Positions 3,001 to 6,000 of a stretch of DNA of 26,501 nucleotides are shown here, one piece after another. How positions within the stretch are numbered: the first letter of the stretch is position 1; each line of letters begins with the position of its first letter. Made by a program: the position numbers. The DNA is from a virus (lineage: Duplodnaviria > Heunggongvirae > Uroviricota > Caudoviricetes), in the IMG/VR virus record IMGVR_UViG_2534682163_000012, positions 1 through 26,501 of that record. One strand, 5' to 3'.

Positions 3001-6000
3001 ATTTGGCGCTTTTTTCATTTCTGCTCTCTCCACGCGGCAATCATGTTTTTCAGTTCCTGTAGTTTTTTATCCACATCCACACGTGACACACGGTTATTTC
3101 TGAAAGTCGGGATTTCCCGCCGGAATCTGCAAATAAAGATCTCCACGTTCAGCGAACTAAGAAATGAATAGCCATCACGGATAAAATACACACGGTCAAA
3201 CATCAGTTTTTTTACCGTTACTCTGTTACCGTTCTTATCCAGATAAATAGCGCCGGGGACAATTTTAGGGTGTGCATAACCGCTGGCAGTCAAGCCAGAT
3301 AAATACGTTCTCATGATTATTTATCCCCGATTTGAATCAGTATTCGCTTTCTTTATAGCATTTAATGCATCTGTGGCATTTTCAATGGTGCACCGTAACG
3401 AAATATCAAAATGTCCAAGCATTGCCAGTAACAAACCGATATTACCCATATCAATGCGCATGGCCTTTTCGTCATAGTCCTCATTTTCTGACGCATGCCA
3501 CATCAGGCTACCAATTGACGCAACAGCCATTGATATATTGTTAGTAGCCCCATCCGCAGCGGAATAAACCTTTTTAGCAATATCATGCTCACAGTTAAAA
3601 TGCGTATTAATCAGGTACTGGTAATTGGTCATGTCAGGCATGGAACACCTCCTGACGAATACGGGCGGCGAATACAGCAACACAACCGGACGGGCAACGG
3701 CTACGCGCTTCGCGTTCCGTCCAGGCGGTGACGTGGATGATTTGAGATTCTGACGCGCCAAAGATGATAAAGCGCCAGATAAAGGCGGTTTGAGAATGTA
3801 CAAGGGTAGGGGTAGTAGCCATGTTGGCAGCCTCCTTGATTGATGGAATGTAACCACCGCAGGAGGTGAGAAGCTCGCTGGCGGTGGACTGTACAGGGTT
3901 CTCACAACTGGCAATCAAGGGAACCAGCCTGACCGAAGTCAGCCCCATACAGCCCACCATTGTATAGGTGTGCGTGTGCGCCGATACAAAAAAAGACGCG
4001 TGCGGCGTCTGTATCGCCTCGATTGTCAGCGGGGTGAGAATCCCGGCACCCGTTTTATGAGGTGCGCGGGAATCATAGCCATTTTTGCTGGTGGCGATCA
4101 ACTGGTTTTTCATACCCGCTTTATTCAGGTTGTGCGAGTCCCGCCCTTGCGGGTGTGTGGTATGATTTCTCATAGCTACCTCGATACTTTCGCTATCGTT
4201 GGTGGTCAGAGGCTGCGAAAGGACGGCAATCCTTTTCAGCCTCGTTTGCATTGAGTGATAAACACTCAGCTGGATTCCAGTATAATCACTAAGTGGAATC
4301 CACTTCAAGCGTTTTGTTTTGGTCTTTTTCGTGTATACTGGATTCCAGTAATCACAAAGGGAACCAGAAATGGAAAGAGACCATATCAATAACAAATCAC
4401 AGAAATTACAGGCTCGCGCCCCGCATGAAGTTGTTGAGGCTATGGAGCAAGTAAAAGAAACAGGCGAGAGCACTGCGCAATTTATCGTTACAGCCATGCG
4501 AGGCGAGATCAAACGCCGCCAGCGCCGTAAGGCCAAAGAATCAGAATAATCACTATCAGCGCCGTGGTGTGAGGTACTACGGCGCATTGCTTTACAGGGC
4601 AGTATCATGACCAACAACACACTATCACCAATACAAGACACGCAAACGCAAGATGATGAAATCATCCGGCAAAGGCAGTCAGAAGCCTGCGCCAGACTTG
4701 AGGAAGAACTAACCAGAACAAAAATACCACCACCAGCGCCGCGCTTAGTGCCACCAGAAAAATTTGCCCTTGAAGATTTTGTCGATAAATACCCACGGCG
4801 GCTTAAATCCGGCAAAAACCGACCGCCAGGATGAGTGCACAAAACCGAACTATGAAACGGATTATTCCGTTTCCGGGGCGTTTGTGTGTGTATAAAGAGT
4901 AAGCTATGCTCTTTTATAGCCATAATCGTTACCTCAATTAATGGTTTGGTTAGACGCCCCGCTACTGCCGCAAACAGTTCGGGGCGTTGTCGTTTACATC
5001 CTCTTACTGAGGTGTGATTTAAATTAAATTCAACTGAATCACAGGCAAAGTGTTTTTTGTGATTCTTTTTTGTGTATACTGAATCACATCTTTTGTTTAG
5101 GAGAATGCACATGGCAAAAAACACTATCAACGACAAATCAAAACAGATTTCAATTCGTATCCCACATGATGCTTTTGATGGCATGGAATCCGTAAAACTG
5201 GACGGCGAAAGCAACGCCGGATTCATAGTAACCGCCATGCGCGGGGAGATCGCCCGCCGCCAAGCAGAAGGAAGCAGTGAAAATCCTCTGATTTCTTCTC
5301 TCGATGCATTGGCGCAAGTGGAAAAAATTGGTATTAAAGCTACGGAAGAACTCGGGCAACTTATCGCCATCGCTCGTGAAGAACTACAGCGCCGCAAGGC
5401 CAAAGAATCAGAATAAAAACCACCAGCGCCGTGGTGTGGGGAATCGCGGCGGCAATCATAGGAGTAAAAGATGTTAAAATTAAAAAAACATGTACCAATG
5501 ATGGTTGCTTTAATTATCACAATCTTTCTCTTAATATCATGCTTTGAGAAAAATAGTCTTTGCTCAAACGATAAGGGCGATTTATTACGGCGTGCTTGCG
5601 ATGTAGAGTTGAAAAAAAGTTGAGCACTACCTAACCGAGACAATGCCGTAGTTCCTGTAATCACAGGATCGCTCAGGCTTTGCCCACCAGCCGCAAATAT
5701 GGCATTGTTGGCGATGCTCATGCGTTGGGGATAACGCGCAATTTGTGTTGAAGGGCCACCGTGACAGGTGGCCTTTTCTTTGCCTGTTATCCGGCAATTG
5801 TGGCGCTTCTTCACACAGTTGATATAATTCCCCTGCACTGATCCAATTTTTTCGCAGCAGGTTAATTGTTCGCAAGGGCGCTCCGGCAACGGGGCGCTTT
5901 TTGTTTTTACCCACCAGCACAATAAAAATCTTCATTTTCCATTTTTGTAAAATTTCATGCTTTCCGGACGACGGGCTATATGTCATTTTTTAGCAGAAGA

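What the first reader, a model, noticed from the sequence alone, without database searches (positions are those of the whole stretch)
5471..5623. Unannotated 50-codon lipoprotein gene ending the satellite accessory operon
A short ORF with RBS, hydrophobic signal sequence and lipobox LISC would yield a 27-residue acylated peptide with three cysteines. It is below the ORF-track cutoff and is followed by a terminator. Small lipoproteins in phages and satellites often mediate superinfection exclusion or envelope functions.
Basis: inference. Interest (0 to 1): 0.4.

Follow-up and report, generated by a model that had tools for sequence, protein, structure and literature searches.

The report
Orphan small exported-peptide gene in satellite

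Summary
The ORF is at 5471-5623, as described. It has an AGGAG Shine-Dalgarno 6 nt upstream, a Lys-rich N-terminus, a hydrophobic stretch, LISC, and a 27-residue tail with three Cys. A strong terminator lies 127 nt downstream. It is the last gene of an 840-nt YlcI/YnfO-led cassette inserted in a helper-embedded PICI-type satellite.

The case for coding:
- It is intact in all five DNA alleles (up to about 20% divergent). Random placement of the same substitutions gives P about 0.004.
- The SD, ATG, hydrophobicity and three Cys are kept.
- An SD-bearing lipobox ORF is expected 0.08 times per shuffled window.

The case against, or limiting it:
- There is no purifying-selection signature (pN/pS about 1.4).
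- Stop-readthrough and frameshift variants circulate.
- The canonical lipobox exists only in the window allele. The others read LKSC or LLTC and fail the rule.
- The family is an orphan: 18 of 5426 E. coli genomes, two hits among 1.84 billion representative proteins, and no Pfam, NCBIfam, PHROG, PADLOC or PDB match. It is not Hok/Gef.

The ORF lies antisense inside a 765-codon stop-free, P4 eta-like frame that is itself under selection to stay open.

Verdict: probably a real small envelope-peptide gene, modest in interest. Lipoprotein status is allele-specific, and the exclusion function is untested.

The parts
5460..5464 (+). Shine-Dalgarno AGGAG, 6 nt upstream of the ATG
   Evidence: Read directly. 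It is unpaired in the MFE fold of 5415-5480. AGGAG or AGGGG is conserved in all alleles, including those with an unrelated upstream gene.
5471..5623 (+). 50-codon ORF (stop included), the finding itself
   Evidence: Intact in five DNA alleles. P about 0.004 for this under random placement of the observed substitutions. GC is 32% against about 50% in the flanks.
5471..5539 (+). Codons 1-23: predicted signal peptide or membrane anchor (n-region MLKLKKH, h-region of about 16 residues)
   Evidence: Maximum Kyte-Doolittle hydropathy over 15 residues is 2.9. Hydrophobicity is kept despite 23 substitutions in 69 nt (P about 0.05). AF2 puts a helix at 7-30 with low confidence.
5531..5542 (+). Lipobox L-I-S-C (codons 21-24), present in this allele only
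   Evidence: Matches PS51257 and [LVI][ASTVI][GAS]C in the window allele and in none of the other four DNA alleles. I22 is ATA here and AAA (Lys) elsewhere.
5540..5620 (+). Codons 24-50: hydrophilic 27-residue tail with invariant C24, C31, C43 and the motif D-x-L-R-R-A-C-D-x-E
   Evidence: Invariant columns in the 9-sequence alignment. AF2 puts a helix at 36-48 with low confidence.
5624..5676 (+). Cassette-specific 3' untranslated segment with the hairpin TTCCTGTAATCACAGGA
   Evidence: Conserved among alleles. It ends where the block shared by 780 genomes begins.
5750..5785 (+). Intrinsic terminator that ends the + strand cassette
   Evidence: dG -19.4 kcal/mol, z -3.8, followed by UUUUCUUU. 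It lies within the widely shared block.
5111..5416 (+). Upstream partner gene, a YlcI/YnfO family protein (101 aa)
   Evidence: NCBIfam NF041551 at 65 bits and phrog_6522 at E 3e-57. PGAP annotates it in RM10410.
4835..5676 (+). Inserted cassette: upstream region, YlcI2, the small ORF and its 3' UTR
   Evidence: Absent from the otherwise 98.5% identical satellite of O157:H7 146N4. The net insertion is 840 nt, a multiple of 3.
3637..5931 (-). 765-codon stop-free frame antisense to the cassette, running through the isrK and C4 RNAs into the Icd-like domain (P4 eta-like)
   Evidence: 258-765 codons in every locus examined; openness survives synonymous recoding of the + genes in only 0.2% of trials; Phage_ASH and Icd-like at its C-terminus; P4 eta precedent.

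Best explanation
The ORF is a real but young, fast-evolving protein-coding gene. It is the second cistron of a YlcI/YnfO-led cassette carried by a helper-embedded PICI-type satellite.

Proposed mechanism: the N-terminal 23 residues act as a Sec signal and put the 27-residue, Cys-containing, charged tail on the periplasmic side of the inner membrane.

In the window allele the LISC lipobox would be processed by Lgt, LspA and Lnt. That would give a triacylated 27-mer with C31 and C43 free to form one disulfide. In the other alleles (LKSC, LLTC) the same tail would stay tethered by an uncleaved anchor, or be released by signal peptidase I at S23|C24.

The conserved part is the tail, so the peptide most likely works by binding an envelope component. 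Interference with incoming or helper phage at the envelope is the leading guess.

What is shown: the ORF, its SD, its conservation, the lipobox pattern, the cassette structure and the terminator. What is inferred: export, lipidation, disulfide, topology and function.
For: - The ORF is intact in five alleles up to about 20% divergent at the DNA level.
- Random placement of the same substitutions keeps all the derived alleles intact with P = 0.003-0.004. This holds when the antisense frame is also required to stay open.
- The SD and ATG are conserved even where the upstream gene is replaced, so the cassette boundary lies about 25 nt upstream of the ATG.
- Hydrophobicity of the N-terminus is kept through 23 substitutions (P about 0.05), and the three Cys are invariant.
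- The tail is the best conserved part.
- The h-region is only 13-16 residues and is flanked by Lys in some alleles. That length is signal-peptide-like and short for a membrane-spanning helix.
- The window allele passes PS51257. Such SD-bearing ORFs are expected 0.08 times per window.
- The low GC (32%), the downstream terminator and the 840-nt insertion fit acquired cargo.
- The ORF always sits in the same satellite context, after a YlcI gene.
Against: - pN/pS is about 1.4 (N-terminus 1.7, tail 1.06). Variable sites number 21, 17 and 12 at codon positions 1, 2 and 3, so there is no signature of purifying selection on the peptide.
- The lipobox fails in four of the five DNA alleles.
- Variants with stop-to-Trp readthrough (87 aa, 17 contigs) and A7-slippage frameshifts (59 aa) circulate.
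- The only indel, 3 nt, is equally compatible with the antisense frame.
- There are no homologues outside the group among 1.84 billion representatives, and no expression data.
- The AF2 model is low confidence.
- It is present in only 18 of 5426 complete E. coli genomes.
Confidence: 0.55

Rival explanations
1. It is a membrane-active toxic peptide. It would be Hok-like in architecture, or part of a toxin-antitoxin or abortive-infection pair in which the upstream YlcI/YnfO protein is the regulator or antidote. The hydrophobic helix would insert in the inner membrane and depolarise or permeabilise the cell.
For: - Its size (50 aa), Lys-rich N-terminus, hydrophobic helix and a (K/R)-x-(S/D)-L-C motif with Cys at position 31 resemble Hok/Gef. 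That motif is the only region hhalign aligns.
- The cassette is two genes. Its first gene has an N-domain weakly resembling an RHH antitoxin-type regulator (PF07704, E 0.02, below the cutoff).
- The second position of the cassette is variable across satellites, holding 50-, 57- or 75-aa proteins.
- A weak antisense promoter-like site and a hairpin with a T-run flank the start codon on the minus strand.
Against: - Pfam HOK_GEF scores 34-85 bits on seven true Hok proteins and gives nothing at E<=10 for four alleles of this ORF.
- hhalign probability is 11% over 11 columns.
- The hydrophobic stretch is only 13-15 residues in several alleles.
- The conserved part is the polar tail, not the helix.
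- A strong, unpaired SD with no sequestering fold is unlike tightly silenced type I toxins.
- The antisense promoter and terminator are not conserved in other alleles.
- There is no PADLOC hit.
Confidence: 0.2
2. It is not a functional gene. The ORF would be a neutral passenger that happens to be open in AT-rich cargo, whose real constraints are the antisense eta-like reading frame and RNA or regulatory elements.
For: - pN/pS is at or above 1 and there is no codon-position bias.
- Readthrough and frameshift variants persist in nature.
- The antisense frame is demonstrably under selection to stay open, and it explains the absence of frameshifting indels.
- The peptide's amino-acid composition can never create an antisense stop under synonymous recoding.
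- PGAP does not call it.
- The distribution is tiny.
Against: - ORF integrity across alleles has P about 0.004 even when conditioned on the antisense frame staying open.
- The SD, ATG and stop are conserved at the same positions.
- The hydrophobic character and three Cys are retained.
- The combination of SD, n-region, h-region and lipobox is rare by chance, at 0.08 per window.
Confidence: 0.2
3. It is a lysis-assisting small lipopeptide, analogous to colicin-release (BRP/Kil) proteins, entericidin B or an o-spanin, that perturbs the outer membrane when the satellite or helper is induced.
For: The size class is the same: a precursor of about 50 aa giving a lipid-anchored peptide of about 27 aa (my own knowledge of BRPs and EcnB). 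The lipobox is present in this allele. The satellite encodes no lysis genes of its own in the window and sits next to the helper's lysis cassette.
Against: - There is no Pfam hit to colicin-lysis, entericidin or Rz1 families at E<=10.
- There is no proline-rich region and no adjacent i-spanin.
- The gene is in the antisense, immunity-side cassette, not in a late operon.
- The lipobox is absent in most alleles.
Confidence: 0.05

Closest known systems
Prophage 'moron' envelope proteins that exclude phages: lipoproteins Cor (phi80/N15) and Llp (T5), and the small inner-membrane protein gp15 of HK97
   Same: A small gene carried as cargo by a resident mobile element. It has an N-terminal signal or anchor and a short periplasmic part, a downstream terminator, and atypical GC. 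This allele has a lipobox like Cor and Llp. The other alleles look like a single-anchor protein such as gp15.
   Different: There is no sequence similarity (no Pfam, PHROG or PADLOC hit). The mature part, 27 aa, is less than half the size of Cor or Llp. No exclusion phenotype has been tested. The comparison rests on my knowledge of those proteins, not on a test here.
Hok/Gef type I toxins (Pfam PF01848)
   Same: About 50 aa, a basic N-terminus, one hydrophobic helix, and a polar C-terminal part with a Cys at position 29-31 preceded by (R/K)-x-(S/D)-L.
   Different: It fails the family HMM, while seven genuine Hok proteins score 34-85 bits. hhalign probability is 11%. It lacks the EV-A-x-x-AYE tail. 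The hydrophobic segment is shorter. No mok-like frame, fold-back element or conserved antisense RNA promoter was found.
Very small bacteriolytic lipopeptides: colicin release proteins (BRP/Kil/Cel) and entericidin B
   Same: The size class of precursor and mature peptide. Lipobox-dependent maturation is predicted for the window allele.
   Different: No homology. The lipobox is not conserved in the family. The genetic context differs, being neither a colicin operon nor the ecnAB locus.
Lambda-type o-spanin Rz1
   Same: A small phage-encoded lipoprotein with periplasmic Cys. A true Rz1 (10276-10461, minus strand) lies in the same window and was caught by the same lipobox scan.
   Different: Rz1 is proline-rich and embedded in Rz within the lysis cassette. 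This ORF has no proline in its mature part, has no i-spanin partner and sits in the satellite's immunity-side cassette.
Phage P4 eta/kil nested reading frame (comparison for the antisense frame, not for the ORF)
   Same: A long frame spans the CI-like (Rfam C4) and seqA-like (isrK) immunity RNAs and runs into the next gene. In P4, translating it from an upstream promoter prevents immunity-specific termination (PMC10111431).
   Different: Here the frame is 258-765 codons, against 197 in P4. It ends in an Icd-like domain and contains whole + strand genes antisense inside it, including this ORF. Translation of the frame is not shown.

Membership tests
Bacterial lipoprotein (Lgt/LspA substrate) | Lipobox matching PROSITE PS51257 or [LVI][ASTVI][GAS]C, with Cys at position 15-35 and K/R in the n-region | tested here: met
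   The window allele LIITIFLLISC, C24, passes both rules.
Bacterial lipoprotein (Lgt/LspA substrate) | Lipobox conserved across homologues | tested here: not met
   L002, L005 and L010 read LKSC and L004 reads LLTC. All fail both rules. The database variants P0004-P0012 also have KSC.
Bacterial lipoprotein (Lgt/LspA substrate) | Lipid modification and globomycin-sensitive cleavage; a SignalP or LipoP SPII call | not testable with these tools
   No predictor or experiment was available.
Hok/Gef (PF01848) | Match to the family HMM | tested here: not met
   No hit at E<=10 for four alleles. Seven bona fide Hok proteins score 34-85 bits in the same search.
Hok/Gef (PF01848) | Profile-profile similarity | tested here: not met
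   hhalign probability 11.2%, 11 aligned columns.
Hok/Gef (PF01848) | Cis-antisense RNA with its own conserved promoter, an overlapping mok frame, and a fold-back 3' element | tested here: inconclusive
   A weak minus-strand promoter-like site (5540..5513) and a hairpin with a T-run (5436..5421) exist in the window. They are not conserved in other alleles.
Colicin lysis / entericidin / Rz1 small lipoproteins | Match to the Pfam families | tested here: not met
   No such hit at E<=10. The window's true Rz1 is a different ORF.
Moron-type cargo cassette | Insertion relative to near-identical elements, atypical composition, own terminator | tested here: met
   An 840-nt insertion relative to L014, GC 32% against about 50%, and the terminator at 5750-5785.
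Moron-type cargo cassette | Own promoter | tested here: inconclusive
   No consensus sigma-70 site was found in 4835-5110. The only evidence is a repeat of the ylcI1 leader element at 5048-5084.
Type II toxin-antitoxin pair (RHH antitoxin plus toxin) | Upstream gene is a recognised antitoxin-type DNA binder | tested here: inconclusive
   YlcI2 against PF07704 gives E 0.02 and 16 bits, with a cutoff of 28. There is no PDB sequence match.
Known anti-phage defence systems (PADLOC-DB) | Match of any cassette protein | tested here: not met
   No hits at E<=1.
P4 eta-like anti-termination frame (antisense strand) | Stop-free frame spanning the CI/seqA-like RNAs into the downstream gene, conserved across relatives | tested here: met
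P4 eta-like anti-termination frame (antisense strand) | The frame is translated, and translation suppresses Rho-dependent termination | not testable with these tools
   This needs Ribo-seq or reporter and bicyclomycin experiments.

The most novel reading that the evidence does not exclude
The locus is dual-coded. A small exported peptide gene and its YlcI partner would be embedded antisense inside a very long translated, P4 eta-like anti-termination frame, with both frames kept open by selection. A single A-to-T change at the -2 lipobox position (K22 to I22) would switch the peptide between an anchor-tethered or soluble form and a lipid-anchored form.
Probability: 0.25. Interest if true: 0.6.

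Novelty: new member of a known kind. Interest (0 to 1): 0.3.

Why it matters
If the peptide is made, it adds an orphan, satellite-borne envelope factor to the growing list of small cargo genes by which phage satellites alter host-phage interactions. It would also give a natural one-codon lipobox on/off pair for testing what lipid anchoring contributes.

The more general point concerns annotation. The ORF is missed by RefSeq. It sits antisense in a long reading frame that is itself selected to stay open, so standard dN/dS and single-strand gene calling both mislead here.

Taken alone, the finding is a modest one: a rare, uncharacterised small gene with no phenotype.

Tried and rejected
- **Family searches.** Pfam, NCBIfam, PHROGs and PADLOC gave nothing meaningful for the 50-aa protein.
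- **Homologue searches.**
  - The word-indexed search of 5.8 billion proteins found only the protein's own cluster.
  - Exhaustive HMMER over 1.84 billion representatives added one 72%-identical protein.
  - GTDB species representatives gave none.
  - tblastn of the phage collection gave only noise.
  - PDB gave none.
- **Hok/Gef membership.** Considered because of the K-x-L-C motif and the size. Rejected on the HMM and hhalign results.
- **dN/dS as proof of coding.** It failed, with pN/pS at or above 1 in the ORF frame and in the antisense open frame. I replaced it with ORF-integrity and hydropathy simulations.
- **The in-frame 3-nt deletion in L004.** First taken as coding evidence, then discounted, because it equally preserves the antisense frame.
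- **A type I-style antisense RNA** (promoter 5540..5513, hairpin 5436..5421). Not conserved in other alleles.
- **Rfam.** It found no RNA family over the ORF or its 3' UTR.
- **AF2 from a single sequence.** It gave only a low-confidence two-helix model, so no fold search was run.
- **The 119-aa minus-strand ORF at 5627-5986.** No family match.
- **Literature searches** for YlcI/YnfO function or for small lipoproteins in satellites returned nothing specific.
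Full report
**What is in the sequence**

The window carries an ATG at 5471 and a TGA at 5621-5623. This gives 50 codons: MLKLKKHVPMMVALIITIFLLISCFEKNSLCSNDKGDLLRRACDVELKKS. AGGAG lies at 5460-5464, 6 nt before the ATG, and is unpaired in the predicted fold.

L21-I22-S23-C24 satisfies PROSITE PS51257 and the [LVI][ASTVI][GAS]C rule. Cleavage before C24 would leave a 27-residue peptide with C24, C31 and C43.

A strong intrinsic terminator has its stem at 5750-5777 (dG -19.4 kcal/mol, z -3.8) and a U-tract to about 5785. It lies 127 nt after the stop.

In shuffled copies of the window, an ATG ORF combining an SD, a K/R n-region and a PS51257 lipobox occurs 0.08 times. Two are observed: this ORF and the true Rz1 of the neighbouring prophage.

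**Where it sits**

The window is E. coli. The satellite backbone is 99.8-99.9% identical to strain RM10410, apart from a swapped immunity segment at 3676-4119.

On the minus strand the element carries:
- integrase (6921-8159)
- an AlpA-like HTH
- Bro-N
- isrK-like and C4-like RNAs (3989-4065 and 3877-3964, at 63 and 75 bits)
- an Icd-like domain, DUF4222, primase and SSB

The integrase abuts a truncated lambdoid terL (GpA_ATPase, 8321-9328). This is followed by terS, Rz/Rz1, lysozyme, an S21-type holin and a NanS-like esterase. The element is therefore a helper-embedded PICI of the kind described in PMC10111431.

The + strand module is YlcI/YnfO (4370-4549), a 75-aa hypothetical (4607-4834), a second YlcI/YnfO (5111-5416) and the small ORF.

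Compared with the 98.5% identical satellite of O157:H7 strain 146N4, the window has an 840-nt insertion at 4835-5676. It consists of an upstream region, YlcI2, the small ORF and a 53-nt 3' UTR. In other satellites the position after YlcI holds unrelated soluble 57- or 75-aa proteins. The ORF's GC is 32% against about 50% around it.

**Distribution**

- 18 of 5426 complete E. coli genomes carry it.
- None of the GTDB species representatives do.
- Six IMG/VR contigs do.
- An exhaustive HMMER scan of 1.84 billion representative proteins returns only the protein itself and one 72%-identical relative.
- Every context examined is the same kind of satellite, with the ORF directly after a YlcI gene. 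That YlcI gene can be a different allele of 60, 65 or 101 aa.
- RefSeq leaves the ORF unannotated, except where TGA has mutated to TGG and gives an 87-aa 'hypothetical'.
- Some GenBank records and Prodigal-type calls do include it.

**Is it coding?**

Five DNA alleles, up to about 20% divergent, are all intact 49-50-codon ORFs with the same start, the same stop and a conserved SD.

Classical tests do not help:
- pN/pS is 1.38 overall, 1.7 in the N-terminal 23 codons and 1.06 in the tail.
- Variable sites number 21, 17 and 12 at codon positions 1, 2 and 3.

The reason may be structural. The only other frame that is stop-free in all alleles is a minus-strand frame whose wobble positions coincide with those of the ORF.

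I therefore simulated the data. Placing the observed substitutions at random keeps all four derived alleles intact in only 0.3-0.4% of trials. This holds even when the antisense frame is also required to stay open. Among the intact simulated alleles:
- N-terminal hydrophobicity as high as observed occurs in about 5% of trials on the two informative branches.
- All three Cys survive in 38-75% of trials per branch.

Evidence against strong constraint comes from the circulating readthrough variant (87 aa) and A7-slippage variants (59 aa). On balance I rate a real, weakly constrained gene as more likely than a neutral ORF.

**Is it a lipoprotein?**

Only in this allele. The alleles read:
- window: LLISC
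- L002, L005, L010 and all database variants: LLKSC
- L004: LLTC, after a 3-nt deletion

All but the window allele fail both lipobox rules.

What is conserved is the architecture:
- 2-3 Lys at the N-terminus
- 13-18 hydrophobic residues
- an invariant Cys24
- the tail CFEK-x-x-LC...D-x-LRRACD-x-E-x-KS

A hydrophobic run of 13-15 residues flanked by Lys is signal-peptide-like and short for a stable membrane span. The family-level reading is therefore a periplasm-facing 27-mer that is tethered or released. The tether would be a lipid in the window allele. The difference is one base, ATA against AAA. The alleles cannot be rooted, so which state came first is unknown.

The fate of a lipidated form is also unclear. 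Phe at position +2 is not the classical Asp retention signal, so inner- or outer-membrane sorting is open (my own knowledge).

**What it is not**

- There is no match in Pfam, NCBIfam, PHROGs, PADLOC or PDB.
- The resemblance to Hok/Gef (size, helix, K-x-[SD]-L-C with Cys31) was tested. Pfam HOK_GEF scores seven true Hok proteins at 34-85 bits and none of this ORF's alleles. hhalign gives 11% over 11 columns.
- A possible antisense promoter and terminator around the start codon are not conserved.
- AF2 from a single sequence gives a low-confidence model with helices at 7-30 and 36-48.

**The antisense frame**

On the minus strand, a frame from 5931 to 3637 has no stop for 765 codons.

- Every locus examined, with or without the small ORF, has such a frame of 258-765 codons. 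In the nine loci checked in detail it runs from the Bro/AlpA side through the YlcI cassette and ends at the stop of the Icd-like domain.
- In the window the frame passes through the isrK and C4 RNAs.
- Its only family matches are Phage_ASH and Icd-like, both at the C-terminus.
- Synonymous recoding of the + strand genes leaves it open in only 0.2% of trials.
- The 840-nt cassette insertion is a multiple of 3 and is stop-free in that frame.

This matches the logic of P4 eta. There, translation from an upstream promoter through the CI immunity region prevents immunity-specific termination (PMC10111431, citing Forti et al. 1999).

For the present finding it matters in two ways. It explains the lack of frameshifting indels without invoking the small ORF. 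It also means the ORF evolves under a second constraint.

**Mechanism**

Best estimate (0.55): a real gene for a Sec-exported, membrane-tethered periplasmic 27-mer. It would be lipid-anchored in this allele with a C31-C43 disulfide, and would act on an envelope component. Phage interference is the leading guess, and it is untested.

Rivals:
- a membrane-active toxin regulated by YlcI (0.2)
- a non-functional passenger ORF (0.2)
- a lysis-assisting lipopeptide (0.05)

**Verdict**

Novelty is modest: an orphan member of the familiar class of small cargo envelope proteins on prophages and satellites. Interest is 0.3. The antisense eta-like frame containing whole genes is the more unusual feature of the locus.

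Noticed in passing
window 3637-5931 (minus strand); also L001-L016: A 765-codon stop-free frame runs antisense to the whole YlcI module, through the isrK/C4 RNAs and into the Icd-like domain. A frame of 258-765 codons is present in every locus examined. Synonymous recoding of the + genes keeps it open only 0.2% of the time. It resembles P4 eta, but is much longer and contains entire antisense genes.
   Followed up: partly
window 3877-3964 and 3989-4065 (minus strand): Rfam C4 antisense RNA (75 bits) and isrK (63 bits) lie just upstream of the Icd-like domain. This is a P4 CI/seqA-type immunity cassette. The segment 3676-4119 is swapped relative to the otherwise 99.8% identical RM10410 satellite.
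   Followed up: partly
window 4835-5676: A precise 840-nt (3 x 280) insertion relative to the 98.5% identical satellite in O157:H7 strain 146N4. It carries YlcI2, the small ORF and a copy (5048-5084) of the ylcI1 leader element (4307-4343).
   Followed up: yes
window 5820-5905 (+ strand): An extended -10 element TGATATAAT (5820-5828) is followed about 45 nt later by a strong terminator (5874-5901 plus a T-run; the 5832-5910 fold has dG -28 kcal/mol, z -3.5). This is a candidate sRNA of about 70 nt, antisense to the start of the long minus-strand frame. It is conserved in several relatives and has no Rfam match.
   Followed up: no
window 8321-14043: The satellite integrase abuts a truncated lambdoid terL (GpA_ATPase), followed by terS, Rz/Rz1 (Rz1 at 10276-10461), lysozyme, an S21 holin and a NanS-like esterase. 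The satellite is therefore embedded in its probable helper prophage (an HE-PICI, as in PMC10111431). Relatives L003, L004, L007, L014 and L018-L024 show the same arrangement.
   Followed up: partly
window 4270-4356, 5037-5089, 5651-5667: The motif AATCAC occurs 7 times in 4000-6100 against 12 in the other 24 kb, often as (C/T)(A/T)GTAATCACA or ACTGAATCACA. A perfect palindrome TACTGGATTCCAGTA flanks the ylcI1 promoter region. These are candidate operators for the YlcI/YnfO proteins.
   Followed up: no
window 5611-5617; P0002, P0005, P0007, P0010: An A7 run precedes the last sense codon (AGT) and the TGA stop of the small ORF. Natural variants show slippage frameshifts (59 aa) and a TGA-to-TGG readthrough (87 aa, WP_266177826.1). 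The readthrough is the only form RefSeq annotates.
   Followed up: partly
window 4370-4549 and 5111-5416: Two YlcI/YnfO paralogues lie in one module. In related satellites YlcI is paired with unrelated small second genes (50, 57 or 75 aa), which suggests a shuffling two-gene cassette of unknown function.
   Followed up: partly
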